Shown piece after piece: positions 3,001 through 54,671 of a DNA stretch of 64,000 nt. Source of the DNA: Eledone cirrhosa. Its lineage: Eukaryota. The stretch is from positions 94,984,001 to 95,048,000 of the forward strand of contig OZ024742.1 of assembly GCA_964016885.1 (NCBI GenBank). The letters run 5' to 3'. Each line of letters opens with the position of its first letter. Within the stretch, counting starts at the first letter, position 1. A program made the position numbers and the translations under genes. The notes beneath the pieces are model-generated. The model did not search any database. It had not been told where the DNA came from and saw only the letters and a program-made list of their open reading frames with translations.

Positions 3001-3349
3001 TATATATATATATATATATAAATTCAGTGAGAATCGCATTTCGGCGGGTAGAAAAAGTGAAACGAAACGCAAAACCAGAGCTAAACAATATGTTAAACTG
3101 CCATACAAACTGAAAAAGTGGTCAAGAAGGCATTAACCACCTAAGCCATAAAACAAAACAAGCTAAACAGGTCAAACAAAATAAATGATAAAAACAGACC
3201 TGGAGCCATTGGAATTGATGGTAAAATCCAAATGCAGGGTTTCTATGACACCTAAATCAATAATAGTGTCTGCTTAAAATTATAAGCTTTTGGTATAATG
3301 ATCGAACAAGGAATATCACGTTATCAACAGGTATTTTGCTCTGCATCAA

Positions 3350-3590: not shown

Positions 3591-3913
3591 GTCTAACCCA
3601 TACTTGCTGGGGAAATGGATGTTAAACGATGATGATGTATATATGCCTGTATGTATATATATACATATATATGTGTCTTTGGGAAGGACTATATATATAT
3701 GTATAAACAGAGAGAAAGAGAAAGAGAGATTCAAGTATAGGTGTGTGGCTAAGAAGTTGGTTTAGGAACCACATGTCTTTGGGTTCAATCACAGTCTGTG
3801 AAATACTGAGCAAGTGTATTTTGCTACAGCCTAGGCTCTAGTGCTGACCTGTGCTTGAAAAGAAATGCAAATAGTGATGTTTGTAGTATGACAGAAATCA
3901 CCAGTATATACCT

Positions 3914-4256
3914 GGAGGCACATGGCTTAGTGGTTAGAGCATTGGCCTTGCAATCGAAAGGTTGTGAGTTCAATTCTCAGATCGGGCAATGTATTGTTTC
4001 CTTGAGCAAGACACTTTATTTCACATTGCTTCAGTTTACTCAGCTGTAGAAATGAGATGATAGGGGCTGGGGTCCATATCATTCCACTATAAAGTGGACG
4101 TGTAGGTGCCACAGCAAAAAAGCACCCAGCACTCACTGTAAATGAGGTTGGAGTTAGGAAGGGCATCCAGCTGTAGAAATCAAGCCAGAATCAGTTCCCG
4201 TGCCACCCTTGCAAGCAGGAAAAGAAGCGGACGTAAAATGAAATGATGATGATGAT
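3914..4256 (+). mobile_element. tRNA-derived CORE-type SINE (family A), full length, RTE-like 3' tail
   Basis: A box (tggcttagtgg) and B box (gagttcaattc); MIR/CORE-like centre (ccttgagcaagacactttatttcacattgct..cagtttactcagctgtagaaatgag); 3' part shared with the RTE 3' UTR (ttaggaagggcatccagc); (GAT)n tail. Closely similar copies at 7433-7743 and 61920-62276. Confidence 0.85.
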
Positions 4257-6472
4257 ACCGTGATATTGTCGGGGAGAAGTGTGTCCTTAATGATGATGGT
4301 GTACTTGCCATCACTGATGCTCATAAGAAGGTAGCTTGGAAGTGTCACTACGAAAGGCTACTAAATGAGGAGAATAAATGGGAGAAAGACAGTCTCCTCC
4401 ACATCGATCCAATAGAGGGACCAACAGTGCTAGTTGAAGGTAGTATAATAAGTAAGGCAATCAAAGATATGAAGATGGGTAAGGCGGCTGGGCCTTTGGA
4501 AATAGTTGCTGAAATGCTGAAAGCTTCTGGAATGGTGGGGCACACTATGGTCACCCGGAAGGTAAACCAAGTCATACAGAATGGGGTCGTTCCGAAGGAC
4601 TGGTGTAGCAGCATCATCATTAACTGCTACAAGGGTAAAGGAGATGCCCTAGATAGGGGTAACTATAGAGGCATTAAATTAATCGACCAGGTCATGAAGG
4701 TCACAGAAAACGTAATAGCGCAACTAATCAGAGAGCGAATTGATCTAGATGAAATGCAGTTCGGCTTTATGTCAGGTAAAAGTACCACAGACGCTCTTTT
4801 CATTGTACGACAACTACAGGAGAAGTACCTAGCTAAAAGTAAACCCCTATACTTAGCTTTTATTGACTTGGGGAAAGTCTTTGACAGAGTCCCCCCCCCC
4901 CTCCATTATCTGGTGGGCTCTTAGAAAACTAGGTGTTGATGAATGGCTTGTGAGAGCTATACAAGCCATGTATAAAGAAAGAATCAGCAAGGTTAGAATT
5001 AACAACGAATATAGTGAAGAGTTTAGCGTAAAAGTTGGTGTTCATCAGGGCTCCGTTCTTAGCCCCTTACTATTTATTATTGCCCTTCAGGCTATCACAG
5101 AGGAGTTCAAGACCGGCTGCCCATGGGAACTCATATACGCAGATGATCTAACGCTCATAGCTGAATCAATGGCTTAACTAGAGAAAAAAATCCAAACATG
5201 GAAGCATGGCCTAGAATCAAAAGGCCTTAAAATTAACCTGTCTAAGACTAAAGTACTAGTTTGTAGGAAGGAAAATAGGGCACCGGTCCCATCTGGGAAA
5301 TGGCCATGCTCAGTGTGTAGGAAAGGAGTAGGCAGAAACTCCATTTTATGTCCCAAATGCAAAGTATGGGTGCAGAAAAGATGTAGTGGGATCACAGATA
5401 AGCTAACTAAGTATATAGATTTTATATGTGGCCGGTGCTCTGGTGCAATAAATAGCAGCAAGTGCCCAGAGAATACTAGCTCATTCCATTGCACAGATGG
5501 TTCTATAGAAATAGTGGACACCTTCCGTTACCTGGGTGACAAAATCAGCAGTGGTGGAGGGTGCTCTGAAAGTACAGTAACTAGAGTCAGAACGGGATGG
5601 AAAAAGTTCAGAGAGCTTATACCACTATTGGCCGCTAAAGGGTTCTCTCTAAAAATGAAAGGCAGGCTGTATGATGCATGCATACGAACAGCAATGTTAC
5701 ATGGCAGTGAGACCTGGGCATTGTGTGCAGAGGATATACACAGACTGGAGAGGAACGAAGCTTGCATGCTCCACTGGATGTGTAATAGTAATATACGTGA
5801 ACGGCAAAGCGTAAACGAACTAAGGGAGAACTTAGGAATAAGAAGGATCAGATGTTGTTTACTCGAGAGAAGACTACGTTGGTACGGTCACGTGATGCGC
5901 ATGAAAGACGACAGCTGTATAAAAAAGTGCAGGGCGATAAAAATAGACGGTAGCCACGGAGTAGGCAGACCCAGAAAAACCTGGGACGACTTGATAAATT
6001 CCGACCTCACACACTTACACCTCTCCAAGACAATATCACTGGACCGAGATCTTTGGTGCTACACAGTAATACAGAAGACCCGCCTTGCCTAAGTACAAAG
6101 CGAAACCTACAGTCAGTAGGCACCTCTAACAAAAATACACCCCCCGTCCACTACCCCCACCCCATCCAATGTAAAGTTATGTTGGTACCACAACATCCAG
6201 TCCGAAATAAATGAGGTCGTGTAGGTGTCACGACAAAAAAACACACAGTCCACGCTGTAATGAGGCCGTGTAGGTAACACGGTAAAAACCTGCCAGTCCA
6301 CACTGTAAACGTGGTTGGTGTTAGGAAGGGCATCCAGCCGTAGAAAACCCGCCAGACAGTCCTATACGAGCAAGACAACCAATCTTGCCTCAAGTGGGAA
6401 AATTCCTGTCCAAACCCATGCAAGCGTGGAATATGAACGTTAAACGATGATGATGATGATGATGATGATACC
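4257..6472 (+). mobile_element. RTE-clade LINE, 5'-truncated and inactivated
   Basis: RT motifs across three ORF pieces (KGKGD..NYRGI, QFGF, FIDLGKVFDRVP, GVHQGSVLSP, YADD at 5136-5147, FRYLG, RRLRWYGHV, GRPRKTW). 3' UTR ends in (GAT)n. Confidence 0.95.
4260..6092 (+). pseudogene. Disrupted RTE reverse transcriptase ORF
   Basis: ORFs 4427-4924, 4863-5177 and 5313-6092 are consecutive parts of one RT. Frameshift at poly-C near 4891-4901 and in-frame TAA at 5175-5177. No endonuclease domain. Confidence 0.9.
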
Positions 6473-6859
6473 ATTCAGAGCATAATTGACCAGTTGGTAT
6501 CAGGTAGAGCATCCAATCATAAAAAAACCTGCCCCAAATGTATTATTCAAACTATGCAAGCTTTGAAAAAGCAGGTGTACAAATTATGATAATTAAGGTA
6601 TGTACATGTGTGTGTGTATCCACTCCAATTCAGGACCTCCTCACTCCCGTGGGAGTAACCCCTCCCTGGCTGATCTTCACTTTTGTTTTGGTCATGTCAG
6701 GTGTGTAACTGTACTCAACAAACTTGGCCAATTACCAGCGGTGAGGCTATTAAACTCATAATTAGGTTGGATGACTGTTAACTTTGAGCAATTCCTCTGC
6801 CTATTTAACAGCTCTGCTTGCACCCCCACATTCATAGCAGCTGCCACCCTGCCCCTGTG

Positions 6860-11183: not shown

Positions 11184-12557
11184 TAACTATAGAATAATGT
11201 AAAAGCTACAGGGTTAAAGTTATTTAGTCAACAATATTGACCACAGTACTTATTTCTTCTGGTCTGACACATGTTATCTCCTTTTGTTAAAGTACTAATT
11301 TGCAGGACATATATAACAGACACACATGTAAACACAGGCATGGACATACACTAAAAGAATATCACCCTCTAGGTGGTTCCCTGCTGGTGTCCATATATCT
11401 GTGTGCATGTTTTTCAAAAATGCTTCAAAAATGAAAACTACATTTTTGACATGTAAATGATACTTACACCAATATATAATGTCTTGTGATTTATTTAATA
11501 TAACAATGTTTATATTCTACAAAATGACAAGCCACATCATAATTAAGCAAAAATGGGATATGAGCAAATAAACAGAGCAATGATTGAAAGTGTAGCACCT
11601 TCGAAAACATTTAAACCCACACAGATTTTCAAATGAAACTTTTTTTTATGGACTATCAGCTACTCTGTTCTGGGAGGATGCTGTGTACCAGATTACTTTA
11701 TAAATAAATGGCAACACATTTTCTTAAGGTGCAACTGATACACAATCACAATGATATGATTGATTTGGTGGTTCATTTATTTCAAAGCTAAAGTATAGTA
11801 TATATATTTGCTGTTATTGTTGTTGACATGTGTACACTGTGTGTGTATTATTTAGAAACTGTGTCTTTATTATGTAGAAACTACATAATATGACAGCTGC
11901 AGCTTGATAACATTTGTCTTCACTTTTTGGTAGCTGCTGCAGTCTGGTTACATATGCCGAGTTTGGGAAGATGGGTGATCTGTGTTCAAATTGCCAAATT
12001 TGAAGGTTGAGTATGGTTTAGTTTGGCAGGTGTCATGAGTACAGGTTGGCATCCAGTTTAGGGAGTTTGCTGACTGTTTGTAGATGGATTGGAGTAATAA
12101 CTGTCTTATTTACGTATATATTATAGATAACTGGGTAGTGTATTGCTTATAAAAGTGAACATAATATTTTGATCACAACAGCAATATTATCACACATCAG
12201 TGGAATTTGATTTCTTGCTTCGATTGAATACCACGTGATATGTAATTTCCTTGGTTTACATCACCAACAGCAGCAGTAGACACACACATAGAAATATTCC
12301 TTTATTATGTAAACATGCATCTGTTAAATGGAAGAAAAAGAAGAGAAAGAGAGACTCTTTCTTATGGTGCTCTTGGCAACCATGGTAATCTCCGGCATGT
12401 AGGTTTCCTTGATTAGCTTTGGGTGGTTCACCCCCATTGGGGAATTCTGTTATTAGTAATTTATTGTTATTTATAACCTGTTTATTTTTCTCTGTTAACT
12501 AATTTCACGTAAATTCCCACTGTTACACTGTCTTCAATGTTTTCGGCATCAGTGACA

Positions 12558-12565
12558 TATACATA

Positions 12566-12632
<67 letters not shown>
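12558..12632. repeat. (TA)n microsatellite
   Basis: Read directly. Confidence 0.95.
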
Positions 12633-12636
<4 letters not shown>

Positions 12637-13225
12637 AATATAATATCCGGTTACTGTAAGAACTCAATGCATAGTTTCCAGAAAGTATTGAGGTGTAGAA
12701 CTAAGCAGAGTGTAATTAAAATAATAAAAAGGATGATTTATGTCTTCACTATGTTTATTGAATAGTGATGTGCGTTTCACTATTGTTCAGCTCAAGGTTT
12801 GATCTGTATAAATCTAGCCTGATTCTGGAATAAAAAGCTTGCTGGACCTCTGCCATGGTCATGCCGACAAGTTTTTGATTCCTGAGTCTGGTTAGATTGA
12901 TACAGATCGTACTTTGAGCTGATTAATAGCGAAACGCACATCACTACATAATAAATATAATGAAGACATAACAAATCGTCCTTTTTATTATCATTATTAT
13001 TATTATTATTGAATGCTATGGTTGACGGAGACTCGGCTCTGTAAGGTATTGTAAATTTTGACCGCTATAACAATTGTAAATTGTTTAAAACTTTAACCAA
13101 CTTGTAGACAAAAACACCCTCCTCCTCGTGAGAGGGGTCTTTCTGCCCGTTATTTAGCCCTTCGGGGTTAAATAACCGCTTATTGGGGTTTTGTGCCCAA
13201 TATTTATTTTAAACAAAAAAAAAAC

Positions 13226-15329
13226 ATGGCTACGAAAAAGAATTTTCATAGGTCACTCCCACTCATTCCGTCTTCTTCTTCCTCAATCGTCACTACAGTA
13301 GAGAGAAGAGTGTCTCTCTCCCTCCCTTCTCTTTCGCAAGCGACGCCAGAAAAGAAAAATCACGTGCAAAGCGTGCAAGATTTCTACACGACGAAAAAGG
13401 TGTGCGGGAAATACAAAAACCCATTTCATTCGTCTGACGTCAGGAATAATAGCAGTAGCAGCCGTAATAACAGCAGCAGCAGCAACAGTGACAAGGAAAA
13501 CAACAGTAGCAGCCGCAACAGCATCAGCAGCAGCATAAACAACAACAGCATTAGCAGCAACAACAACAGCAGCAGCAGCAGCAACAACAACAACCACAGC
13601 AACAGCGGCGGCGGCAGTAGTCGTAGTACCTGCAGCAACAAGAAAAGTAACAGCAGCTCTGACGACAACAACAACAACAACAACAGCAGCAAAGAAAAAC
13701 CAATCTCGTTTGCAGGTATCGCAAAGAACCTGGAAACCATCCTCATAACAAATGAGGAATTAGAGGAAGCGAAGAAGATGGTGAAAAAAACTGGACACCG
13801 AGCAATCTGCAAGGCAGCCGAAACATTTTTCAAAACCCAACAGCATTGTACGCTCACGTACCGTACAGTAAGCAAAAAATCCCGTAGGGTTGAAAGAGCC
13901 ACAGAGGCTCAAATACAAAAAGTCTTAGGGTGTGTGTGGCAGCGGAAAACGCACATCACCCGAGGCAAGAAATATGCCACCGTAGACGTACTTTTTGCCA
14001 CACCCCAGGAGGCAAAGGCTCAATCCTTAGTGACCCTAAGGAGCGAGGAAATGGTGTTGGTGCCCTCCTACTGCGGGCAAAAAATTGTGAGGGTCAAACT
14101 GACCCACGTCCCCCCCCCCCCCCCCCGGGATGGACCCTTCTTGGCTGGCCGCGTCTGTCCTCGTCGGAATCGAGGACAAAACAATTGTACTGCAAGTACA
14201 GAAAAAAGTAAGAGAAGATTGGGTCGGCACCTCCATTGAGATGTTAATCCAAACCAACCAGGAGTGCATCGAAGCTATCCCGGATGTGATAGACTTCGAT
14301 AACGGCACTCAACTGCCCATAAGTGTTGAGGGCAAACGCCCGAATTGTTTTCGCTGTGGATCGAAGACTCACCTCAGGGCCTTCTGCAACGAGAAGACCC
14401 TGAGAAAGGAGAAAACCCCCCTCCTTCCGAAACAGGCTCCACGGCTACCAGCAACAGGATAAGCGGCAACCAGGAACGATAGGTCCGTGGCATCCATACC
14501 CACGCCACGGAAATCAAAAACAGCAGCAGCAGTGGAAGTATTAACAAAAATAACAGCAATACCAAATGCAGCTGCAACAGAGACTCCAGTGGAAACATGA
14601 CCAACAACAACAAGTGAAAGAGTGGAGCTGGTACCCCTCCCCGACCTCACAGAATCATACATGGAGTGTGAGGTGGGAGAGGGATGGCAAAAGGTCGTAA
14701 GAAGGCACAAACGCAGAAGCAGCGCATCGTCACCTTCGAAAAGGGAGGAAAGAAATGAAAAAAGGGTAAAGGCTACTGCAAAGAGACTCATAGCAGCAAC
14801 ACCACCAACACCATCACCACCCACACTAGCACCACCATCACCACCGGCGACAACTCCACCACCAACAACAACAACACCTACAACACCACCACCACAAGCA
14901 CCAACATCGCAAACACAACAAAACACACACACACAGCAACAACGACAAGAAAATAGCAGAACCACACCCCACCCCCAGAAAAACAAATGCACGGCAATAA
15001 ATACACACAACAAGAAACTAATGACTTACATAATTGAAAACACAGACATTTCACAGCACGACTACATAATACCAGCACCAATCAAAACGCTAACTAACAT
15101 AAGACTGCTAAAAATAGCACAGAAACAATACACAAACATTAAAACGAAATTCCCCAACGCAGTTGGTGATTTTAGAGACCGAGGAGGGACTCTCAACCGG
15201 AGAGTATATTCGGACATACTCATAGAAGAGCCGACGCCCAGCCGAAGGGACGATTCAACGGTCCCTTCACCAGACGATCAAGTGAAAAGGGATGGAAAAA
15301 CCATCCTTCCTCTACGAAAAGTACGGTAA
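13226..15329 (+). pseudogene. LINE ORF1 (Asn/Ser-rich N-terminus, RRM-like core, CCHC zinc knuckle, Pro/Thr-rich C-terminus)
   Basis: ORFs 13193-14239, 14130-14462 and 14622-15329 join across a poly-C frameshift (about 14110-14127) and premature stop(s). Knuckle CFRCGSKTHLRAFC. Clearly homologous to 16642-18661. Confidence 0.85.
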
Positions 15330-15364
15330 GTGGTCTTTCCCATCTTTTCCACTCTATTTTAAAC

Positions 15365-16196
15365 ATGACCTCACTCAGAATAGGCAGCATAAATGCGCGT
15401 GGCTTGGGGTCGTCATGGAAGCAGCAGGGTCACCTGCTCAACGACCTCAGGTCACTAAACATAGATGTAGTGGCCATCAGCGAGACCAGAATCTCCGAAG
15501 CACGGGCCTTCGCACCGATCTTCGGCGGCTACGATGTGTACGCATCTCCCAGCCGTCCTGGATCGGGGGGAGGAGTTGCTGTGCTTTTTCGGAGAAGTTT
15601 GGATCTCGCCATACGGGTCATAATCCTGGACCCAGAGGGTAAGTTGGTGGTGCTGGACGTTACCAGCGGAGACGGGCAAGCTTTCAGGCTAGTGGCCGTC
15701 TATGCCCCGACAGGAGCAGAGCGGCCTGATTTCTTCCGGCGCCTGGAGACCTTTCTTGGAACGTCCCGCTCTTTAGTGTTAGTGGGCGACTGGAACGGGA
15801 TCTTAGATGCAGCTGAGACTGTGTGGGATTAGCGGATAGGGGTGGAGGGTGCAAGAGCCTCACCAACCTGCTCAGGCGTTTTGAACTGTCTGACAGGTAC
15901 CGATTGGATTTCCCGAATGTGCCAATGTGGACTTGGACAAATGGCATAGGGTCATCCAGATCATATCTAGATAGAGTATTTTGTAGGGAAATAGATAGGT
16001 CTACAATTCAAGATAGTCAGCTACACGGACCACAAATGTGTGATCTGTGTGCTTGACTTAGATAGGCTTTATAGGCGAGGACCCGGCTACTGGAAGCTAA
16101 ACGCGTCCTTACCAGCGCGCAAGGCCTACAGAGACCGGATTAGCGAACTAGTTAAGCGGGCGTTGACGGAGGGCATCGTCAACAACAAGTGGTGGT
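15365..16196 (+). pseudogene. LINE ORF2 fragment: APE endonuclease
   Basis: LRIGSINARGL, DVVAISET, AVYAP, LVGDWN, SYLDRVF, GPGYWKLN. Frameshifted and truncated by the deletion. Confidence 0.9.
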
Positions 16197-16641
16197 CAGG
16201 GTCACTGTGGTCTTTTACTGGGCTTTCTCCACAAATGTTCCTCGGAAGTCTCCCCCCTATTGGGGAATTTTTCCTTGTTATTTTTTTGTTACATCCTCTG
16301 TTTTTGTTTTTTACACGCAGAAATGCCCATTTGTACCGTCCTGTATTGTCCTGCTCTATCCTTAATGTCTACTTTATGTAAACCCTTGTGGTTAATAAAG
16401 AAATTATTATTATTATTATTATTATTGGTTGGTGAAGCCACGCTTCTTATCGCCTCCAGTTTTTTTCAAAGTTTTACCTCTTTTTCAACCGTTCTAAATC
16501 TTTTATTCAAGTTTTAAATTTGATAAAAGTTTAGAAGAAGTGACCCACCCAATACAGGGGTTCACTAGTAAATAATACGGCACCCCTTTACGGGGTGTAG
16601 TATTCGTATTTGTGTAAAAATATTTTTTGAAAAATTTCAAC

Positions 16642-18661
16642 ATGGATAACACAAAAAAGAGAGAGAGCGCTGTCAGACAATACAGAGAGAGGGAGACTTT
16701 ATCAGCATGTCAACTCGACAGCGTTCCAGCAGAGGTAAATATAAACGAAAATATTACAAAGGAAAAAAAGATTGTTACAGATTTAAAATTAACAAATATT
16801 TCTAACACAAACAACACCAACAATAACACCAACAACAACACCAAAAATAACAGCGGTAAAGTCGAGAACGACAATAACAAAAATAACAGCGGTAAGGTCG
16901 AGAACGACAATAACAAAAATAACACCGGTAAGGTCGAGAACGACAATAACAATGACAATAACAACAGCCACAACAACAATAATAGTAGGAACAGTATCAA
17001 CAAAAACAACAATAATAACAACAGCCACAATAACAGTAACAGCAGCAACAGTATCAACGAAAACAACACCAACAACTGTACCAGCGAAAAGAACAACAAT
17101 GACACCGATACCTGTAATAGCGGCCTCAGCACCACCAGTAAGACCAGTAGCGGCAGCAATAGTGGCGCTGCTGAAAAAGGGACCACTTCTTTTGCAGGTG
17201 TCGCCCGAAATATCGAGACAGTGTTAGTCACAGAGGAGGAGATGGCCATGATGACAAGAAGCGCAAATAGAGTATCCCTGAAACCTCCACCCGATTTTTT
17301 CAAGGACCAGCAGCTACGAACGGTGACTTACCGCACCGTAAGCAAAATCTCACATCGAGTGGAGAGAGTCACGGAGGCTCAAATCCAAAAGGCCTTGGGG
17401 TGCGTCTGGGCACGTAAAACCCACATCACCCGAGGCAGAAAATACACCACAGTAGACGTACTTTTCGCCACCCCCCAGGAAGCAAAGTCTCACTCTTTGG
17501 AAACCCTAAAGAGTGAAGAGTTAGTCTTGGTGCCCTCTTACTGCGGGCAGGAAATTGTGAGGGTCAAAGTGACCCAGGTCCCACCCGACGTGCCCATACC
17601 TTGGCTGGCCGCGTCTGTCCTTGCTGGAATTGAGAACAGGGCGACCATGCTGCAAGTAGAAAAAATAGGGAGAGAGAACTGGTCAGGTATAGGCATGCAA
17701 ATGGTTATACAAACTGACCAGGAATGTAACGAGGCTATCCCCGATATCATAGACTTTGAGGAAGGACTCCAACTCCCTATAAGTGTAGAAGGAAGACGGC
17801 CAAAATGTTATTTCTGTGGGTCGAAAGGTCACTTCAGGGCCTTTTGCCCGCAGAAGACACCGAAGAGGGCCCCCCTTCTTCCAATACCTGGTCCGCTGCT
17901 ACCAAGAGCAGGACAGGCAACAAACGAAGAAGCCCCTTCCACGGTGAGTAGGAGGGCAACGTCCATAGCACCCGTACCAAGGCCACGGATAACTAAAGCA
18001 GCATCATCAGTAGCGGCAACACCAATAGCTACATTTGAAATAGCTACACCAGCAACAACATTGCCGAAGAGGGCTCCTCCACTACCACCACCAACAGCCG
18101 TGGGACACATACCCCTCCCAGACGCCACAGAATCCGACATGGAGTTTGAGGCGGAAGTGACGTGGCAAACAGTCTGCCACAAAAAACAAAAAACAAAAAA
18201 AACCCTTAGATTCACCCTCCAAAAGCGAAGGCATACAAAGAGGGGTAAAGGCAGCAAGGAAACTTGCAGCAACACCACCACCATCACCACCAAACACCAA
18301 CAACGCAAACACAACAAGACACACACACCAAACAGCAACAAAATCACCCCTCCCCCCAAAAAGTACACAACCATAAACATGGCAAAAAAAGAACTCATAC
18401 AACATATAAAGCAGCACACAGACATCACGGAAAAAAAATTACTACACCCTACCAACACCAAAAAGTCTCCCGACAAGCATAAGCATCATCGAAATCTCAT
18501 TAGAACAATACAAACCTTTAAAACAAAAATTCACCAACGCAGTTGGAGACTTCAGAGGGATGGTTACCAAGAGGATATACACTGACATCCTCTTGGAAAC
18601 ACCCATGACCAGAGAAAGGGACGGTTCTACTGTCCCTTCACCACACGAACAAGGTGAGTGA
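16642..18661 (+). pseudogene. LINE ORF1 with CCHC zinc knuckle
   Basis: 652-aa ORF 16627-18585 (likely ATG 16642); CYFCGSKGHFRAFC. The C-terminus is frameshifted relative to copy 1, and the TVPSP motif is recovered in another frame ending in TGA at about 18659-18661. Confidence 0.85.
16843..16950 (+). repeat. 36-bp coding tandem repeat x3 (KNNSGKVENDNN)
   Basis: aaaaataacagcggtaaggtcgagaacgacaataac repeated three times within ORF1. Confidence 0.9.
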
Positions 18662-18693
18662 CCCTTTCTCATTTGCCTCATTTCTCATCCAAC

Positions 18694-21600
18694 ATGGCTG
18701 TACTCAGAATAGGAAGTATAAATGCACGTGGCCTGGGGTCATCTTGGAAGCAGGGTCGCCTCCTTAATGACCTCAGGTCACGAAACATAGATGTGGTGGC
18801 CATCAGTGAAACCAGAATCTCTGAGGCACGGGCCTTCACACCGATCTTCGGCGGCTACGATGTATACGCATCTCCCAGCCGTCCAGGATCGGGGGGAGGG
18901 TGCTGCCGTCCTTTTTCGGAGAGGCTTGGATCTCGCGATACGGGCCATCTTCCTGGATCCAGAAGGTAAGTCGGTGGTGCTGGACGTGACCGGCAACGAA
19001 GGCAATGCTTTCAGGCTAGTAGCCGTCTATGCCCCAACAGGGGCAGGATGGCCAGATTTCTTCAAACGTCTAGAGACCTTTCTTGGAACGTCCCTGCTCT
19101 TTAGTGTTAGTGGGCAACTGGAACGGTATCTTGGATGCACACTGAGATCCTGTGGGGCTAGTGGATAGGGGAGGAGGGTGCAAGAGCCTCACCAACCTGC
19201 TCAGACGTTTTGAACTGTCTGACAGGTATCGACTGGATCACCCGAATGTGCCAATGTGGACATGGACAAACCGCGTCGGGTCATCCAGATCGTATCTAGA
19301 TAGGGTATTCTGCAGGGAACTAGATAAGGCTAGTATAAGTTGTCCACAATTTAAAATAGTCGACTACACAGACCACAAATTTGTGATCTGTGAGATCGAC
19401 AGAGACAGACTTCATAGACAAGGACCCGGTTACTGGAAGCTGAACGCGTCTTTCCTGGCACGCAAAGCCTACAGAGACCGGATTAGCGTATTAGTTAAGC
19501 GGGCGTTGACGGGAGCGGTCGTCAACAACAGGTGGAGGTTCGCCCTGAAAAGGGCAATTAAAGTAGAGTTGATTAGGTTTAGCAAAGGAGTAGTGATAGA
19601 GGAAAATAGAGTAGAGGTAGAGCTAGTCAGAAAGCTAGAAGAGGCGTTTAGGACAGGCATCGCAACCGACGTGCTTGCGGCGAGATTGGCACTCGACCAA
19701 TTCTTCAACGCAAAACACGAAGGCTGCGTTGTCAGAGCTAGAGCGCGTGCTCTGAAACACGAGGGGACAAAAGCCGTCCAATGGGCCCGGGTGGCAGAGG
19801 CGCGACGTGGCAATAAAGCCACAATTCGGTCTTTGTCTGACCAAAACGGGTGCGTGATGCTCGAACCCGAGCGGATGTGTGAAGCTTTTCAGCAGCACTT
19901 TGCTGAACTGTTCGGGAGCGGCAGCAGCCTGGATCGGGACATGGACTTCAATGCATACCTCGACGGACTGCCTCGGCTCTCGACGACCGCAGCACAGTGT
20001 TGCGAAAAGCCAATAACAGCCTGTGAAATACGGGATGCGATGGCTAACTGCACAAGAGGTAAATCACCAGGTTTCGATGGTCTGCCCTACGAGCTTTATG
20101 CATTTATGCCAGACTTGTTCGGTGACCTCTTGGCAGACGTCTACTGCAACTGGCAGCAGAACGGGAACATTCCCAGTTTTGTGAGCCGCTGAGAAAAGAC
20201 CCGAACAAGGAGGATGTTATTTATAAATTCAGGCCCATAACTCTGCTAAACGCAGAGTTCAAGATTTTGGCCAAGGTGTTAGCAACGAGGTTGGCACTTG
20301 TCGTCAAGGGTCTGGTGGGAGAGGCGCAGACATGCGCCATCCCGGACAGATCCATACACGACAACCTGCACCTCATGCGATACATCATAGAGAGGGTGGT
20401 TAAGGAACCTGGCAAGGGTGGGGCCCTGATCAACTTGGATCAATCCAAAGCATTCGATAGGGTCGACCATCGGTACCTGGCGGCGGTCCTCGAGGCAGCC
20501 GGTTTCGGGCCCGTTTTCAGGCGTTGGATCGCGGCAATGTACAGTGACATCTGCTCAGTTGTGAGGTTGAATGGTCACCCATCGCAGGCGTTCAGCATCA
20601 TGCGCTCAGTCCGCCAGGGTTGTCCCCTCTCGTCCCTCTTGTACGTATTGGCTCTCGAGCCATTACTGCACAAACTGGGGGCGATGAGGGGCGTCCCACG
20701 CGAACTAGGATGCGGGAAATCCGAGTCGGCTTACGCAGACGACGTCACCGTGGTGGTGTCGAGCACCAGACACGTCCAGATGCTCGGCACCGCTCTCAAG
20801 GAATACGAAACGGTGACAGGATCAAAGATAAACCAGGAAAAGTCGGTGGGCTTGCAGCTAGGCACCTGGAGAGGCAAGTCCATGCAGTCCGACAGCGTCG
20901 TGGGGCGTTGGACGGACGGACCGGTTAAATTGCTCGGAGTCTGGTTGGGACCGGACCTCCAGATGGAGAAAAAACTGGAACGAGGTGACGAACAGGGTGG
21001 CCTCCCTCACCCAGAAATGGGCTGAGAGGAAGCTGTCCCTGAAAGGCCGGGCGGAAGTGGCAAATGCGTACATCGCATCCGTCATCTGCTACCGCCTCAC
21101 CGTCGTCCCTTGCTCCAGCCCAACTCTCACCAAAATGGAGCGCCTCCTCTTCCGCTTTTTGTGGAAGGGACGCGCTCCCATGGTCAGACGATCCATCTGC
21201 TGTCAACGCCCGTTGCGTGGAGGACTGGGCATGCCATGGCTGATGATGCGCTGAGGCTGCGCAATCTCTGGTGCTTCCTTGATGGTGAACGGGTGTGGTC
21301 GCCGTTCGCCAGACACATTTTCCCACAGCTCGTCTCCTTGACGGAGCTGCAGTCCTGGGTCAGAAAAAGACCGAGGGATAGCGCTTGGAAACTGGAATGT
21401 CTCCAGGCGCTCACTCCCCTCTCCCAGTTGGGCACCATTTTCGGTGGAACATCCACCTCGGCGTTCTATAGAGGACTAGTGGAGGAGAAGAGCGACGACG
21501 TTCTCGGAGAGATCCTGGGCGTTGAAGAAGATCAGCTGCTTGCTCTCTTCTGGAGAACTTTCAGCCCGGGGCCTATGGATAACTTCCAAAAATCCCTGGC

Positions 21601-22089
21601 CTGGCAGTGCTACAGGGGAGCGTTGCCGGTTCGAGATAAGATCTACAGGCACGGAAGTGCCGTCAGCCGAGCCTGTCCGAGATACGCACAGAGCGACGTA
21701 ACCGTCGTGCACGCACTCGTTCAGTGCCCGAGCATTGCTGACTTGTGGAGCTATGTCGAACAGTTGCTGTCACGTGTGGGACTGATCCGGTTGTCGACTG
21801 AGTCCATTGTGCAGATGATCTCGCCGTCTTCCTTTGAGGAGGAAGGGCAGGCGGTTTTCATCTGCCTGGTGGCCATGGCAAAAGAGATTGTGTGGTGGAC
21901 AAGGTTAAAAGGATTAAAGACAAACACTTTCCTCTTCGGCGAATCCCTGATTAACTTTTTCAAGTTTCATTGAAGAGGAAAATCAGGGTGGAGAGGCAAG
22001 TGCTGCTTTTTAGCAAGTTTGTTGAAAGGTGGGTGAATGTAGCGAGAATGGTCCGAGTGAACGGGACCACTCTGAACATACGTCTGTAG
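18694..22089 (+). pseudogene. LINE ORF2 (APE endonuclease + reverse transcriptase), multiple frameshifts
   Basis: SINARGL, TDHK, GYWKLN, GKSPGFDGLPYE, RPITLLN, LDQSKAFDRVDH, SVRQGCPLS, YADD at 20732-20743, LSLKGR, GGLGMP, CPRY..TVVHALVQCP. This is L1/Tx1 architecture. Confidence 0.93.
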
Positions 22090-22378
22090 TTTGAGAGATG
22101 GAAAAGTTGAGAGAGGGCGCTTGCCCTGGTAGTCAGGGTGGCCGTGGTCTTTTGTGTGGTTTTTGCCACGAGTAACCCTCGGAGGTTTCCCCCCTATTGG
22201 GGAATTTTTCATTGTTTCAATTTTCATTTTATTGTTTATATATATATATATGTTTTATGTCTTTTTTCTTTTCTTATATAAATAATACAAATATTTACAC
22301 GCACAAAACCCACAACGTACCGTCCTGTTCCGTCTGTGATGTTTTGCTTGATGTCAGCCCTTGTGGCCAATAAAGAAA

Positions 22379-22438
<60 letters not shown>

Positions 22439-23920
22439 CATATATAAATAAGTGACAGTGCTGGTGCCATGAAAATAGCTCCCAATATATGCTATAACAT
22501 GGTTGGTATTAGAAAGGTCATCCAGCCATAGAAAATCAACCCAGTAATGGAATGTATGAGTAAGCCATGGTTAGTGATCTGTCTAGCATCATAATGTGAC
22601 AGCACATCTAATTCATGCAAGCATGGAAAATAGAAGTTAAATTATAAGAGTATATGGTGGACTTCTACAGTTTCAATCTCCCAAATGTCTCTCACAGAGT
22701 ATAGTAGAAGACACTTGCAGTGGGAATGACCCCCCCCCCCCCCCCCACCCCCAAAACGAAACCAACAGCACAGCCATGCCTATTATGATATAAAATGACC
22801 ACAATGTCTGTATAATTTGCTGAATTGCATTGACATCAAGTCTGGCAGTAATTTAAGATAAAATGTTCAAGGTTTCCCCATATACATTAGTGATTTAAGT
22901 GAAAATATATGGCTATTATTAATATTTCATATTGTATTGCAAACTGTATTCTCCTCATTTCAATTTTCACAGTTCTTATGTTTAATTTTACTTACTCTGC
23001 ATCTCTGTATTTTATTTTCTCTTTTACCCAGAAGGTTCTGTCATATATGGTGTGATTTCTTGCTAAATATAATTTTGGTTAGGTCTTGGATTAATGGATG
23101 ACAAAATACATTTCTATTTCTTTGTTCTGAACATGACTTTCTTTAATACTACTCATAACACAAGTTACCATACCTTGTTGTATTCTTGTCTTTGTCTCTA
23201 AGGTTGAGAGGACTCTTCAATTGTAACAAAGACATGACAATCTCCCTTGTGTTAGTGTCATATTTAAAACATACTCTCCACACTCTAGGAAGGTCATTCG
23301 TCTGTGGAGTCTATGCCTAAAACTAGAACTTTTGAATGTGTGACCCCACCAGTCCATCTGGGACAACAGTAAAGGTTAAAATTAGAAGACAGCAACTCCC
23401 ATTAAATACTGACATGGCCTAACCCTTGACAGCATGGAAAAACAGATAGTAAATGATGAAAAAAAAGAAAGAAATTTATTTGATGGCAAATTGGCAAAGT
23501 AGTTAGGGAGTCTTAGGTATTTGTTCTGGCTCACTGCACTCTGAGATCAAATTCAATCAATCCAAAGTTTGTCTTTCATCTTTTTAGAATAAATAAATAA
23601 AGTACCAATCCAGGAGTATTGGATTGGTGGAACTGATAAAGAGTTGAACAGGATGCCTTTTGCTATCTGATCCAGCTCTGCGAATGGCAGATAGCATTAA
23701 AAATGAAAAGACCAATGGAATCATTGTTTCCTTGGTCTGATATGATGATTGGCTACTTTGCTTTTCTTTGTTATCATTTTGTGTTTATTTGTGTATCTAC
23801 TCTCCTATATGGATCAGGAAATCCTGTCTAGCGCAATATGTTCCATTTTGATCATTATTTCTACATAATGCCTAAGGCATAAATATCATATAATCTATTT
23901 TTTTTCTCATCCAATAAACA

Positions 23921-24173
23921 TTAACTCTTTCATTACTTTGTTAGCATATTTCTAATGAGAGACACTATCTTATGCTCTTGAATACAAACAAGAATCTAGA
24001 TGGATTTAATGATATAGCTAACTTTCACATTAAGATGGTGTTTCAAGTATAATTTAACAGTGGTTCTTACATAAAATTATAATAAAATGTTTTAGTAAAT
24101 ATTAACATTTTAAAATAGTTTTGTATCATAGACCCAAGGGCAGTTTCAGGTGATTTGATAGCTAAAGAATTAA
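23921..24173. mobile_element. Degenerate TTAA-flanked (piggyBac-like) MITE, family 2
   Basis: TTAActcttt...aaagaaTTAA. Its right end is the reverse complement of about 30243-30280. Similar remnants near 54056 and 61630-61843. Confidence 0.45.
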
Positions 24174-27872: not shown

Positions 27873-28055
27873 ATTGTTTCTACTTTTGGCACAAGGCCAG
27901 CAATTACCCCAGTGCATTACTGGTGATTTATTTTATCGACCCCGTAAGGATAAAATACGAAGCTAAACTCAGCGGCATTTGAACTCAGAACGTAAATGCC
28001 ATAACTCTATGTTCCAACATGTGGTGTCTGATGCTCTGCTAATACTGCCAATCCA
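27873..28055 (-). mobile_element. tRNA-derived SINE family B
   Basis: Reverse complement of 32517-32694. Confidence 0.8.
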
Positions 28056-28384: not shown

Positions 28385-28491
28385 ATTGTTTCACAAGGCC
28401 ATCAATTACCCAGTGCATTACTGGTACTTTATTTTATCAACCCCGTAAGGATGAAAGGCAAAGTTAACTTCGGCGGGATTTGAACTCAGAA
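28385..28491 (-). mobile_element. SINE family B, partial
   Basis: cacaaggccatcaattacccagtgcattactggtac...ggatttgaactcagaa. Confidence 0.75.
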
Positions 28492-31400: not shown

Positions 31401-32516
31401 AAAATATTCAGTTGTCTGGTGAAGCTGCAACAATATGGTCAATGCATCTTTAGAAATGACAATGAAGAAGACAACTATGCAGTTTGTCAAAATCATCAAC
31501 AATATGCGGTAAAGTAAAATAAATAATCTAATTACATCAAAAGGAGAATTCACATTATTTGACGTATTTTATAAATTTTGTATAACATGTTGATATTTTG
31601 TATAACATGTTATTTTGTATAACAATGTTGATATTGCAATAATCCTCCATCCATAAAATCAAGGAAGCAGTTATTCTCTGGTGTCTGAAATGCATAAGCA
31701 TACTTTCTTATGGTTTCTGTGTACAGAGAAATAGCTGAAATTGGTTACACTCCCAGTTCATTACTTTCAAAGCACAGGCTTCAAATTCAAGAATGTAAAA
31801 AAAGCTTCAAATATTCACAGTGTTCTAGTAAAAATAAGCAAATATGTATATATATATATATCCAGCATACATATATATATTTGTGTTTGTATGAACGCTT
31901 GTGTGTGTGCATGTAACTTTGTGTATGTATGTGTACATATAAATATATATATATAGTACCAAAATTATATTAAGGATGTCATGTCTGAGAATATCAGAAT
32001 CATGCGCCATACCACCTGTGAAATATGCTCAAAGATTCCAAAGTAAATCCGAGTATTTATATTAAGTCAAAAGAAGGATGATATATATATATATATATAA
32101 AATAAACACATCAAACAATTACAGGGGATAATTTGTAAAGAGTGAAACCACACATAGTTACGGAGGTAACATATTAAAAATTAAACAAGAACTTTGAATA
32201 TAGATACCTTGCAATAATGATTAATCTCCTTTGTATATATTCCATAGAAGATATATATTTCACCCTTAATCGGTAATTCATAAATGACAAATATTGAATC
32301 GTCGACAAAGGAGAAGATTTAACTATTTATGATTATGCACTCAAAGCAAATCAGGGGATAACAGTGTAAAAGCATGTGTGGTTTAAAAAACACACATCAC
32401 TCTGCTGTCATGCCAGTGGCATGAATATATACGTATATACATATATACATGTTCATATAGAAATAATTAGTTTAGATATATATCTAGAGATTTCGATCTC
32501 ATTATTTACAATTCAT

Positions 32517-32694
32517 GGATTGGCAGTATTGGTAGAGGGCCGGACGCCATGCTTTCCAGCATAGTTACGTCCCTTTACGATCTGAGTTCAAATCCCACCG
32601 AGGTTGACTTTGCTTTTCATCCTTACGGGGTCGATAAAATAAAGTACCAGTAATGCACTGGGTAATTGCTGGCCTTGTGCCTAAAGTAGAAACA
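32517..32694 (+). mobile_element. tRNA-derived SINE family B with 16-bp TSD
   Basis: A box (tggcagtattgg), B box (gagttcaaatcc), central gcttttcatccttacggggtcgataaaataaagtaccag. TSD attatttacaattcat at 32501-32516 and 32695-32710. Confidence 0.9.
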
Positions 32695-33405
32695 ATTATT
32701 TACAATTCATTTGGAGCACATATGTAGGATTAATTATAATACTACATTCCCAGCCAGAAGCCTAAGCTGTGAAAACAGTGTAATTATTGTATTGACAGAT
32801 TAACACATGAAAATGTTACTCACAATTTCATCGATTGAAACAGCCAATATCCTCTTAGTTTAGCACACACAAATCTGTCGGAGTACAAAAATCCACGCTT
32901 AAGCTGGTACAGTTCTATTTCAAATTCCATGCTGAATTCAGTCATCATTGATTAACAATAAATTCATTACAAGTGAATTCTGAACGAGGGAATTCTCATT
33001 GGACATATGAAGGATTTCTGAAAATCGACCTTACTACTAAATTTTAAAGTTGGTGCCGGATAGCCGCAGTGGTAGACTAGCTGAGGTTGGAGGAAATGGT
33101 TAATATAGGAATATCATTGAACCATAATTAAAGAAAAAGTTTTGGGAGTCAATTATATTAAGGGTCTAGATCAGTATCCAGTGATTTTGATGTTGTTGTT
33201 TACAACTTACTTAACAAATTCATTTGGAGCACAGGCACAGGATTAATGGTAATATAACATTCCCAGCCAAATGCTTAAACTATGAAAACTGTGTAATTAT
33301 TGTATCGACAAATTAACAAGGAAACGTTAAAGTACTCACAATTTCATCATTTGAAACAACCATTATCCTCCTACATAAGTGCATATTAAATATGTATATA
33401 TATAT

Positions 33406-36023
33406 ATCATCATCATTGTTTAACATCTATCTTCCATGCTAGCATGGGTTTAGATGGGAATTGTCCCACTTGAGGCAAGATTGGTCGTCTTGCTCGTATA
33501 GCACTGTCTGGCAGGTTTTCAACAGCTGGATGCCCTTCCTAACACCAACCACGTTTACAGTGTGGACTGGGAGATTTTTACAGTGTTACCTACATGGCCA
33601 CATTACAGCATGGACTGTGTGTTTTTTTGTCGTGACACCTACATGACCACATTTATTTAGGATTGGATGCTGTGGTACCAACATAACTTAACAGAGAAAG
33701 GAGTGGTGTTGATGGCAGTGGGGGTGGGTGGAGTAGTGGAATGGGGTGTATATTTGGCTAAGAGGTGCCTACTGACTGTAGGTTTCGCTTTGTACATAAG
33801 CAAGGTGGGTCTTCTGTATTACTGCGTAGTGCCAAAGATCTCGGTCCAGTGACATTGTCTTAGAGAGGTGTAAGTGTGTAAGGTCGTAATTTATCAAATC
33901 GTCCCAGCTTTTTCTGGGTCTGCCTACTCCGTAACTTCCATCAATTTTGATCGCCCTGCACTTTTTTATACAGCTGTCGTCTTTCATGTGCATCACGTGA
34001 CCATACCAATGCACTCTTCTCTCGAGTAAACAGCATCTGATCCCTCTTATTCTTAATTTCTTAGTTCATTTATGCTTTGCCATTCACGTATATCATATTA
34101 CACATCCAACGGAGCATGCATGCTTCATTCCTCTCCAGTCTGCGCAGATCCTCCGCACACAATGCCCATGTCTCACTGCCATGTAGTATTGCTGTTTGCA
34201 TGCAGGCATCATACAGTCTGCCTTTCATTTTTAGAGAGAAACCTTTAGTGGCCAACAGTGGTATAAGCTCTCTGAATTTTTTCCATCCCGTTCTGACTCT
34301 GGCTACTGTACTTTCAGAGCACCCTCCACCACTGCTGATTTTGTCACCCAGGTAACAGAAGGTGTCCACTATTTCTATAGTACCATCTGGGCAATAGAAG
34401 GAGCTAGTATCCTGTGGACATTTGCTACTTATTGCACCTGAGCACCGGCCACATATAAAAGTTATGTTCTTAGATAGCTTACCTGTGATATCACTACATC
34501 TTTTATGCACCCATACTTTGCATTTGGGACATAAAATGGAATTCCTGCCTACACCTTTCCTACATACTGACCATGGCTATTTCCCAGAGGGGACTTGTGC
34601 CCTATTTTCCTTCCTCCATACTAGAACTTTAGTTTTAGACGAGTTAGCTTTAAAGCCTTTGATTCTAGGCCATGCTTCCATGTTTGGAATTTCTTCTCTA
34701 GTTCAGCCATCCATTCAGCTATGAGTGTTAGATCATCTGCATATAGAAGTTCCCATGGGCCAGCCAGTCTTGAATTCCTCTGTTATAGCCTGAAGGGCAA
34801 TAATAAATAGGAGGGGGCTAAGGACAGGGCTTAAATTCTTCACTATATTCGTTGTTAATTCTAACCTTGCTGACTGTTTCTTTATACATGGCTTCTATAG
34901 CTCTCACAAGCCATTCATCAACAGCTAGCTTTCTAAGGGCCCACCAGATACTGTCGCGGGGAACTCTGCCAAAAGCTTTCTCCAAGTCAACAAAAGCTAA
35001 GTATAGGGGTTTACTTTTAGCTAGGTACTTCTATAGTTGTCGTGCAAGGAAAAGAGCATCTGTGGTACTTTTACCTGACACAAACCCAAACTGCATTTCA
35101 TCTAGATCAATTCGCTCTCTGATTAGTTGCGCTATAACTTTTTCTGTGACCTTCATGACATGGTCAAGTAATTTAATGCCTCTATAGTTTCCCCTATCTA
35201 GGGCATCTCCTTTACCCTTGTAGCAGTTAATGATGCTGCTGCTACGCCAGTCATTTGGTATGACCCTGTTCTGTATGACTTGGTTTACTATCCGGGTGAC
35301 TATAGAGTGCCCCACCGTTCCAGATGCTTTCAGCATTTCAGCAACTATCTCCGAAGGCCCAGCTTCCTTGCCTGTCTTCATATCTTTGATTGCCTTACTT
35401 ATTATACTACCTTTAACTTGTACCGCTGGTCCTTCTATTGAATCGATTTGGGGTAGACTATCTTTTTCCCATTTATTATCGTCATTTAATAGTCTCTCGT
35501 AGTGACACTTCCAAGCTATCTTCTTATCAGTATCAGTGAGGGCAAGTACACTGTTATTATTATGAACACACTTCTCCCCAACAATATCATGGTTTTCCTT
35601 GACAGATTGCCTAGCAATATGCACACCTCACGTTTTTGGTCCTCGCCTAGTAGAACATGCTTAAACTTTCTTTCCTCTGCTTCCTCTCGTGCATAGTACA
35701 CTTGTCCCCTAGCTTCCCTCCTGGCCACTTGATAGTGTTCTCTACATCCCCCATCCCATCATACTTTCCAAGCCTGCTTTTTGGCCTTGATTGACTCCTC
35801 CACCTTACTGTTCCACCACCACGTTACTCTCCTCCTGCCTATAGGTCTGCTCCGGCCACTGATTTCATCTGTCGCCATCAGCAGGTTAATTTTAGGAATT
35901 CCCACTGTTCCTCTATATTGTATGTCTCTAATTGCTTTTCCTTACTGTCAAAAGCATCAAGTAATATGCTTTTAAATTTGTTACTGGCTGTGGGGTCATT
36001 TAACTTCCATATTCTTCTCCTTA

Positions 36024-36024
<1 letters not shown>
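33406..36024 (-). mobile_element. RTE-clade LINE, 5'-truncated and decayed, same family as 4257-6472
   Basis: Minus-strand ORFs 35031-35624, 34070-34510 and 33769-34014 closely match the first copy. Extends further 5' (RRRIWKL, TWWWN, ARREAR). (ATC)n at 33406; (TA)n on both flanks. Confidence 0.95.
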
Positions 36025-36070
<46 letters not shown>

Positions 36071-36332
36071 AGTATGTATATACATACAAATGTATATATA
36101 TATATATGTATATATATACATACATATGTATATATATATTTATGTATATACATACATATGTATATATGTATATACATATAATGAAGGAAGTCTGGTAAGG
36201 AACCAGATGGAACATAACGCATCAGAGTACTCAATACTTAGTGAAGTAGAGTGGGTAATAGGAACATTTTCAAGACGCCGATGGCAGAGCTCAAGCTGTC
36301 GAAACCTCTTGTGCTCTGCCATCTGGGTCTTG

Positions 36333-36371
<39 letters not shown>

Positions 36372-36499
36372 TTTCCGAATTTGTTTAGCAAGATTTTTCA
36401 TCTGAAAACGTGTGTTGAAACCGATATTATTATACTTTGGGAGGTTCATGTTGCCAATAAGAAACACACGCACCAGTTGCTTTCACTTCAATTTATTAT

Positions 36500-36857
36500 A
36501 AATTTACGGTTGGTTGGTTCCACAACCGAGTGGTTTTTCATATATTGTCAAAGTTCTTTCGTAACACATTCTGTGACCTCTTCAGTGACTGGCGATTCTT
36601 ATCTTTGTTTTGTGCCTCTCCTTTGTTCTGTCCTACGCCATCTTGTTTTTGAGTGTGTTGTGTGCTTATTTTGTGCATGTGTTACATCGGGGTGTCTGTG
36701 TGTGTTTTTATTTGTTTATTTATGTGTTTATTTTCATGTTACTAGTTAGTTGTTTGTTCTATGTGTGTGTGTTTTCATTTTGTCCTTAATTATAAGTTGT
36801 GATGTTGTTATGAACAACCATCCGGTTGTGGAACCAACCAACCAACCAACCGGAAAT
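36500..36857 (-). mobile_element. Inverted-repeat element with hammerhead motif (Penelope-like remnant)
   Basis: About 45-bp inverted repeats at 36500-36542 and 36810-36857, with gtcaCTGAAGA..GAAAgaacTTtgac on the minus strand at 36547-36589. Confidence 0.55.
36547..36589 (-). ncRNA. Minimal type I hammerhead ribozyme motif
   Basis: Stem I gtca/tgac, core CUGAAGA, imperfect stem II, GAAA, short stem III, CUU cleavage triplet. Confidence 0.55.
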
Positions 36858-49674: not shown

Positions 49675-49760
49675 ATTGTTTCTACTATTGGCAAAAGGCC
49701 AGCAATTTCCCAGTACATTACTGGTACTTTATTGTATCGACCCCGTAAGGATGAAAGGCA
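49675..49760 (-). mobile_element. SINE family B, 3' fragment
   Basis: ttgtttctactattggcaaaaggccagcaat...cgaccccgtaaggatgaaaggca. Confidence 0.75.
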
Positions 49761-54274: not shown

Positions 54275-54671
54275 ATTCATGAGTGAATAATGATAATACA
54301 ATAATAATGTTATTAATATTTGATTGGGGTAATAACCTCAAAACGATTGTAGATTATTTTACTCTCTGCCACTGCTGGAACAAAGATATGGTGTTAGTCA
54401 TCTAGAACATATGATGTTATGAGGTTATTTGCTTGCAGAGGAATCAAATAATAATAATATTAATAATAATAATAATAATTGATTCTACTTTTGGCACAAG
54501 GCCAGCAATTACTCAGTGCATTACTGGTATTTTATTTTATCGACCCCGTAAGGATGAAAGGCAAAGTTAACCTCGGCGGGATTTGAACTCAGACCGTAAA
54601 AGGCTGCAAAGCATGGTGTCCGACCCTCTACCAATTAATATTAATACTATTATTTTTATTCACTCACAAAT
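54275..54671. mobile_element. Fold-back MITE-like element interrupted by a SINE
   Basis: Termini attcatgagtgaataa / ttattcactcacaaat. Interior similar to 38340-38520. Confidence 0.5.
54478..54635 (-). mobile_element. SINE family B
   Basis: Reverse complement of 32517-32694 with an (AAT)n tail to its left. Confidence 0.85.

What the first reader, a model, noticed from the sequence alone, without database searches (positions are those of the whole stretch)
12987..22432. Two diverged Tx1/L1 LINEs stacked head-to-tail in (ATT)n tracts: candidate microsatellite-targeting, self-stacking family
Seen: (ATT)n at 12987-13010, copy 1, (ATT)n at 16403-16426, copy 2, (ATT)n at 22381-22430. Both copies have the same orientation and appear 5'-complete. 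Their 5' UTRs and ORF1 N-termini are not alignable by eye, so these look like independent insertions of two subfamilies rather than a duplication. Known: Tx1-clade elements such as Kibi, Koshi, Dewa and Keno use APE endonucleases to target specific repeats. Inference: this family targets (ATT)n, and because each copy ends in (ATT)n it leaves a landing site for the next. I do not know of a described cephalopod ATT-specific family, but I cannot search.
Basis: partly seen in the sequence, partly recalled or inferred. Interest (0 to 1): 0.75.

Follow-up and report, generated by a model that had tools for sequence, protein, structure and literature searches.

The report
Jumping genes stacked in ATT repeats
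Two related jumping genes sit head-to-tail between ATT repeats here, as their relatives do at many places in this probably octopod genome, likely because they insert into that repeat and leave a fresh one behind; repeat-targeting is a known lifestyle, but a young sister family that sits in a different repeat makes the cause of target choice testable.

Summary
Observation confirmed with one correction: copy 1 has lost about 2.6 kb, including the whole reverse transcriptase. Copies 1 and 2 belong to two families (A, B; ORF2 80% identical, unrelated 5' ends). All 60 5'-complete copies examined follow an (ATT)n tract (background 0.13%), and 19 of 60 sit directly behind a related element's tail. 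Truncated copies are less tidy: 13 of 44 follow a tract and 4 more show ordinary 14-21 bp duplications starting in ATT. Dong-like LINEs use the same tracts on the other strand. A SINE sharing the 3' hairpin inserts at short ATTAT(T) motifs. A young sister family (one intact ORF2) sits in (ATCT)n instead. Best reading: an APE-type, probably Tx1-clade LINE that nicks and primes in ATT repeats and so stacks. The uniform ATT|G junction likely reflects ATT carried at the RNA 5' end (inferred). Tx1 membership was not tested against named families, and no empty allele was found. Microsatellite targeting is known (Kibi, Koshi; Dong on TAA). I found no paper on an ATT-targeting Tx1, but Repbase was not searchable. 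The scan had noted this guild at 8 or more other loci of this genome.

The parts
12987..13010 (+). (ATT)n tract 5' of copy 1 (one ATC interruption)
13011..16402 (+). Copy 1: family A LINE, 5'-complete, internally deleted
   Evidence: 94% and 97% to full family A copy L178 on either side of the deletion; head matches 40 scored copies at 98-100%
13226..15329 (+). Copy 1 ORF1, frameshifted in the poly-C run near 14110-14127; CCHC-type knuckle seen by eye near 14350-14390
   Evidence: uninterrupted 715-aa ORF1 frame in L173
15365..16196 (+). Copy 1 ORF2 remnant: APE-type endonuclease, frameshifted near 15811
   Evidence: PF03372 E=4e-11
16190..16196 (+). Deletion junction (7-bp microhomology); about 2.6 kb of family A missing, RT included
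   Evidence: not seen in the 29 other family A 3'-end loci
16381..16393 (+). 3' hairpin of copy 1 (4-bp stem, CTTGT loop) before AATAAAGAA
16403..16426 (+). (ATT)8: tail of copy 1 and 5' flank of copy 2
16427..22380 (+). Copy 2: family B LINE, full length, frameshifted
16642..18585 (+). Copy 2 ORF1 (647 aa open; Asn/Ser-rich N-terminus, zinc knuckle)
   Evidence: PF00098 E=0.005, below the curated cut-off
18694..22089 (+). Copy 2 ORF2 (endonuclease, RT, C-terminal zinc-binding), in six reading-frame pieces
   Evidence: PF00078 E=4e-29, PF13966 E=1e-5; pieces against an intact sister ORF2
22357..22367 (+). 3' hairpin of copy 2 (3-bp stem, CTTGT loop)
22381..22431 (+). (ATT)17 tail of copy 2 / right part of the host tract

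Best explanation
These are two decayed copies from two families of a non-LTR retrotransposon with an APE-type endonuclease, likely of the Tx1 clade, whose full-length copies sit behind (ATT)n tracts genome-wide and which likely insert into those tracts. Shown: the ATT flanks, the head-to-tail stacking, the Dong-like elements on the other strand, and a sister family in (ATCT)n. Inferred: ORF2p binds the 3' hairpin, nicks the AAT strand at a short ATTAT(T)-type site, and the RNA's (AUU)n tail pairs with the nicked strand to prime reverse transcription, which favours long tracts. The second nick lies about 12-20 bp downstream, so each insertion leaves a tract on both sides that is a target for the next element. 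Inferred with about even odds: full-length RNA starts inside the upstream tract, so the cDNA end anneals to ATT and gives the uniform ATT|G junction, whereas truncated cDNAs join by microhomology. Which of the two copies arrived first is not resolved.
For: 60 of 60 5'-complete copies follow a tract, 58 of 60 ending exactly in ATT; background 0.13%. Among 78 copies picked by their 3' end, 33 of 34 full-length and 13 of 44 others follow a tract. Four truncated copies have 14-21 bp duplications starting in ATT (L108, L115, L140, L204). 19 of 60 sit directly behind a related tail and 12 behind a SINE tail. Downstream neighbours of the 78: 21 Dong-like (all opposite strand), 15 same-strand A/B/C pieces, 10 same-strand SINE, 2 opposite-strand A/B/C or SINE, 30 none. 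A third 5' module (family C) on the family A ORF2 has an ATT tract at its head in 8 of the 9 copies with ORF2 junctions at 2235-2251. The young sister family has (ATCT)n before 13 of 23 truncated and 3 of 3 full copies resolved (background 0.05%); tail unit equals flank unit in both lineages. Motifs aligning to L1-EN catalytic positions (recalled) are present in intact A, B and sister endonucleases.
Against: 26 of 44 non-full copies show neither tract nor duplication; 17 of these abut another A/B/C, Dong-like or SINE piece and several are rearranged rather than truncated, but 9 have no such neighbour. The SINE that shares the 3' hairpin lies in a long tract in only 6 of 39 random copies, close to the 12% of ATTAT(A/T) sites that lie in tracts; 13 of 44 is not clearly above that. 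No empty allele was seen. No RNA data, no biochemistry. Hits are the best-scoring 40 per search, so they lean to young, intact copies; two pairs among the 78 look like duplicated DNA (L198/L199, L197/L158).
Confidence: 0.78

Rival explanations
1. The enzyme only prefers a short ATTAT(T) motif, as L1 prefers TTTT/AA; the long tracts at both ends are carried by the RNA or grow later by slippage, so there is no real preference for microsatellites.
For: SINE duplications of 11 nt or more in 22 of 39 copies, 16 of them starting ATTATT, only 6 of 39 in tracts. L108, L140 and L204 inserted at sites with 1-2 ATT units. Full-length versus truncated copies differ strongly (33 of 34 against 13 of 44, p=3e-10).
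Against: 19 of 60 full copies lie directly behind a related tail, whereas 400 kb of random DNA holds 1,579 short motif sites and one such tail. In the young sister family 13 of 23 truncated copies lie in (ATCT)n.
Confidence: 0.15
2. Stacks are copied as units: read-through transcripts of an existing A+B pair are reverse transcribed together.
For: B heads follow family A tails in 7 of 30 loci; one other locus (L091) has the same tail variant before a B head.
Against: A-A, B-A, A-B, B-B, B-C, SINE-A and SINE-B orders all occur with different tract lengths; the A tail of L091 is not among the 40 best matches to copy 1's tail.
Confidence: 0.05
3. The pair is a local tandem duplication that later diverged.
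For: Same orientation and shared architecture.
Against: 80% identity over ORF2, non-alignable 5' ends, and each copy is 1.5-3% from its own family's majority sequence.
Confidence: 0.01

Closest known systems
Kibi (TC)n, Koshi (TTC)n and crocodilian Tx1 families on (TTCC)n/(TTTC)n (PMC4494074; passages and section 15 read; Fig. 3 and supplements not seen)
   Same: APE-type two-ORF LINE flanked by one microsatellite; related families on different repeat units.
   Different: Target here is (ATT)n, with a sister on (ATCT)n, in a probable octopod; relation to these families was not tested for want of named sequences.
Dong (R4 clade) on (TAA)n in most insects, molluscs and cnidarians (PMC7998251; passages read)
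   Same: Same repeat; Dong-like elements occupy the same tracts here (21 of 78 downstream neighbours).
   Different: Dong uses a restriction-like endonuclease and lies on the other strand; this family uses an APE.
R2 elements whose RNA carries upstream 28S sequence (PMC3774820; abstract and passages read)
   Same: Uniform 5' junctions explained by annealing of cDNA to the target: the model borrowed for ATT|G.
   Different: No Rfam ribozyme match here; the RNA start is unknown.
Stringent LINE/SINE pairs with a shared 3' stem-loop (PMC3747384; passages read)
   Same: Conserved loop with changing stems shared by LINE and SINE.
   Different: Stem is only 3-4 bp and, in 3 of 4 folds, no more stable than shuffles; mobilisation of the SINE is inferred.
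SaTar MULE arrays built by microsatellite targeting in guayule and rice (PMC5907723; abstract read)
   Same: Non-nested arrays of elements joined by a microsatellite.
   Different: DNA transposons in plants.
L1-Tx1 families of Octopus vulgaris (PMC13282606; first third read plus term search of the main text; supplement not read)
   Same: 13 recently active L1-Tx1 and 5 Dong-R4 families are listed in an octopod.
   Different: The word 'target' does not occur in its main text; no target specificity is described there.

Membership tests
L1 group non-LTR retrotransposon (APE type) | ORF1 plus ORF2 with APE endonuclease, RT and C-terminal zinc-binding domain | tested here: met
   Pfam PF03372, PF00078, PF13966
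L1 group non-LTR retrotransposon (APE type) | RT closer to L1 ORF2p than to R2 | tested here: met
   PDB: L1 ORF2p E about 1e-38, R2 E 4e-20 or weaker
Tx1 clade | RT groups with named Tx1 elements (Tx1L, Keno, Kibi, Koshi) | not testable with these tools
   No named Tx1 protein among the 120 best hits or the cluster members; the tree has no named Tx1 row
Tx1 clade | ORF1 with a CCHC knuckle rather than the vertebrate L1 ORF1 domain (feature recalled) | tested here: inconclusive
   PF00098 E=0.005, below cut-off; no L1 ORF1 family matched
Target-specific family (criterion of PMC4494074: over 20% of flanks hold the sequence) | One repeat in more than 20% of flanks | tested here: met
   46 of 78 copies picked by 3' end have the tract at the 5' junction
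Microsatellite-specific Tx1 (Kibi/Koshi type) | Endonuclease cleaves the repeat specifically | not testable with these tools
   Needs biochemistry; the SINE data point to a short motif
Microsatellite-specific Tx1 (Kibi/Koshi type) | Target is (TC)n, (TTC)n, (TTCC)n or (TTTC)n | tested here: not met
   Targets are (ATT)n and (ATCT)n
Dong/R4 | Restriction-like endonuclease C-terminal to RT, no APE | tested here: not met
   Both copies carry an N-terminal APE; only the opposite-strand neighbours are Dong-like

The most novel reading that the evidence does not exclude
An undescribed octopod LINE lineage has radiated by switching microsatellite targets (ATT versus ATCT, endonucleases 61% identical) and swapping 5' UTR/ORF1 modules; it has converged on Dong's repeat from the other strand, carries target repeat at both RNA ends so that pairing at both junctions does the aiming, and drives a SINE of roughly 10^5 copies. 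Its young sister with an intact ORF2 would be a natural swap experiment on how APE retrotransposons choose targets.
Probability: 0.35. Interest if true: 0.62.

Novelty: new variant of a known kind. Interest (0 to 1): 0.42.

Why it matters
APE-type LINEs that aim at a sequence are few, and whether the endonuclease loop or RNA-DNA pairing sets the target is testable only with close relatives on different targets. Here families A and B (endonucleases 89% identical) share ATT and a sister (61%) sits in ATCT, with changes in the hairpin loop region used in L1 loop-swap structures. It also offers an explanation for long element arrays and for microsatellites that make poor markers in cephalopods (inference). 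It is not a new kind of mechanism.

Tried and rejected
Empty allele: three contig sets of one sample and one RAD run were laid on 11500-24000; no joint skipping the elements was among the 15 joints shown (277 not shown), and contigs break at the tracts, so this is uninformative. Order of insertion: both copies are 1.5-3% from their family majority, not resolving. Search for a SINE's own duplication split by a later LINE: no informative case among 54 full copies. Rfam: no ribozyme or other credible match in 12900-22500. ARAGORN found no tRNA gene in the SINE-bearing locus L231, so the tRNA origin of the SINE is not shown. Protein atlas gave no result. The first sister 'head' query was an internal ORF1 piece of another ATCT-type family, not a 5' end. 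A-B dimer mobilisation: not supported. Literature: 9 searches gave no paper on an ATT- or ATCT-targeting Tx1 or a cephalopod target-specific Tx1; Repbase, Kojima and Fujiwara 2004, Fig. 3 and the supplements of PMC4494074 and the supplement of PMC13282606 were not seen and may list such a family.

Full report
Observation. The three ATT tracts and two same-strand elements are present as described. Pfam finds an APE endonuclease in copy 1 and RT and the C-terminal zinc-binding domain in copy 2. One correction: copy 1 is only 3,392 bp. Against a full family copy (L178) it matches at 94% to position 3140 and at 97% from 5753, so about 2.6 kb with all of the RT is missing, joined at a 7-bp microhomology. 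None of the other 29 family A 3'-end loci shown has this junction, so it is probably a local deletion. Both copies are frameshifted and 1.5-3% from their family majority.

Host and clade. The genome has 3.0 Gb. The closest named protein is from Argonauta hians (66%), so the host is probably an octopod. ORF2 is closer to L1 ORF2p than to R2. In an RT tree of 31 rows, families A and B group together (97/94, each with one single divergent piece), the two ATCT-type families group together (96/85), and all group with the Argonauta protein (100/99). No named Tx1 element was available, so 'Tx1' rests on architecture and recall, not on a test.

Two families, not a duplication. A and B share ORF2 at 80% and mid-ORF1 at 73%; their 5' ends do not align. 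Searches with the heads and tails gave 666-1,888 first-look candidates each, of which 40 were scored (96-100% identity) and 30 returned as loci. A third 5' UTR/ORF1 module (C) is joined to the family A ORF2 at the ORF boundary (95% from there on).

5' flanks. All 60 5'-complete loci (30 A, 30 B, the window's two included) follow an ATT tract of about 4-32 units; 58 end exactly in ATT. In 40 random 10-kb stretches 153 of 114,080 sampled positions meet the criterion used. To avoid choosing by the 5' end I took the 78 other copies scored by the two 3'-end searches: 34 are full length (33 after a tract) and 44 are not (13 after a tract, 5 labelled as duplications, 26 neither). Four of the five duplications are informative (L108, L115, L140, L204: 14-21 bp, starting in ATT and running into non-repeat DNA); L136 is only ATT-like. 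Of the 26, 17 abut another A/B/C, Dong-like or SINE piece, and by eye about seven are rearranged or carry another 5' module rather than being truncated. Two pairs look like duplicated DNA. The sample leans to young copies.

Stacking and neighbours. 19 of 60 full copies lie directly behind a related tail and 12 behind a SINE tail; 1 of 26 random tracts is such a LINE tail (p=0.005). Downstream of the 78 copies lie 21 Dong-like pieces, all on the other strand, 15 same-strand A/B/C pieces, 10 same-strand SINEs, 2 opposite-strand pieces and 30 with no library match. The Dong label rests on an RT followed by a restriction-like motif seen by eye, R2 as best PDB match, and the published (TAA)n target of Dong (PMC7998251).

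SINE. Following a lead from earlier scan notes, I tested a 187-bp SINE. It occurs with an intact 3' end 39 times in 400 kb of random DNA; 22 of 39 have duplications of 11-21 nt (shuffled pairings: mean 2.7, maximum 7 of 300 trials), 16 starting ATTATT; only 6 of 39 lie in a long tract, near the 12% of short motif sites that do. It shares with A, B and the ATCT sister a CTTGT loop closed by different 3-4 bp stems; in random DNA 27 of 37 such loops near element ends have a stem against 64 of 628 elsewhere. All four folded ends form the loop, but three are no more stable than shuffles. If these LINEs mobilise the SINE (inferred), the nicking motif is short.

Sister family. A random stretch (L228) held sister elements (70-73% identity) stacked in (ATCT)n. 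One family is young (median 0.5% from majority in 13 copies) and one copy has an intact 1,148-aa ORF2. Of 30 loci, 26 were resolved at both ends: 3 full copies after (ATCT)n; 23 truncated, 13 after (ATCT)n, 4 with 15-20 bp duplications, 6 neither; background 57 of 114,080. Its endonuclease is 61% identical to A's, while A and B share 89%; the loop aligned to the swapped loop of the L1 chimera structures differs.

Mechanism. Shown: flanks, stacking, opposite-strand sharing, duplications of about 12-20 bp, target change in the sister. From established TPRT biochemistry (recalled): bottom-strand nick, priming, second nick. Inferred: pairing of the RNA tail with the nicked strand favours long tracts for the LINE; each insertion leaves two tracts. 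The uniform ATT|G junction of full copies, against mixed phases in truncated ones, and four full copies with only 1-3 downstream units yet no non-ATT duplication (L178, L203, L211, L214), fit the R2 model in which RNA carries upstream target sequence (PMC3774820); I give this step even odds. The main rival, a short-motif preference only, explains the SINE but not the 19 of 60 stacked copies.

Novelty. Microsatellite-targeting Tx1 families, (TAA)n targeting by Dong and arrays built on microsatellites are all in print (PMC4494074, PMC7998251, PMC5907723). Nine searches found no ATT- or ATCT-targeting Tx1 and no target description for octopod L1-Tx1, but Repbase and several figures and supplements were not visible. 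Earlier, unreviewed scan notes report the same guild at eight listed loci of this genome; none lies near this window. Verdict: real, a new variant of a known kind; interest 0.42.

Noticed in passing
L228:1-10000; L289-L330: Sister LINE families stacked in (ATCT)n; one is about 0.5% diverged with an intact 1,148-aa ORF2 (L326:537-3983, minus strand).
   Followed up: yes
L180, L189, L192, L196, L200, L205 (junction at family A position 2235-2251); L195, L201 (2294): At least two other 5' UTR/ORF1 modules are joined to the family A ORF2 at the ORF boundary; L103 is an A 5' part on a B 3' part. Module swapping looks recurrent.
   Followed up: partly
L023, L156, L161 (downstream of the ATT tract): Two further recurring or ORF-bearing heads starting with G follow ATT tracts; probably more families of the group.
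   Followed up: no
L058, upstream of the family B head: A related 3' end followed by (ACT)n grading into (ATT)n; possibly a family with a third repeat unit.
   Followed up: no
L104:7330-7410 and downstream tract: A truncated family B copy is flanked by an apparent duplication of about 76 bp of a Dong-like 3' end.
   Followed up: no
L178, L203, L211: Three full copies end in one ATT unit followed at once by a long (CTT)n run.
   Followed up: partly
window 3904-6475 (+) and 33383-36811 (-): Two decayed copies of another LINE with RT and a PHD-finger insertion, RTE-like by recall; not flanked by ATT runs of 4 or more units.
   Followed up: partly
window 27875-28055, 28392-28490, 32516-32694, 49677-49760, 54480-54635: Five copies or pieces of the hairpin-sharing SINE.
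   Followed up: partly
window 56808-56947 (-): Short, old fragment (71%) of the same LINE group.
   Followed up: no
L092, L100, L110, L177 and copy 1: Large internal deletions are common in these families (many full copies align in 2-4 pieces).
   Followed up: no
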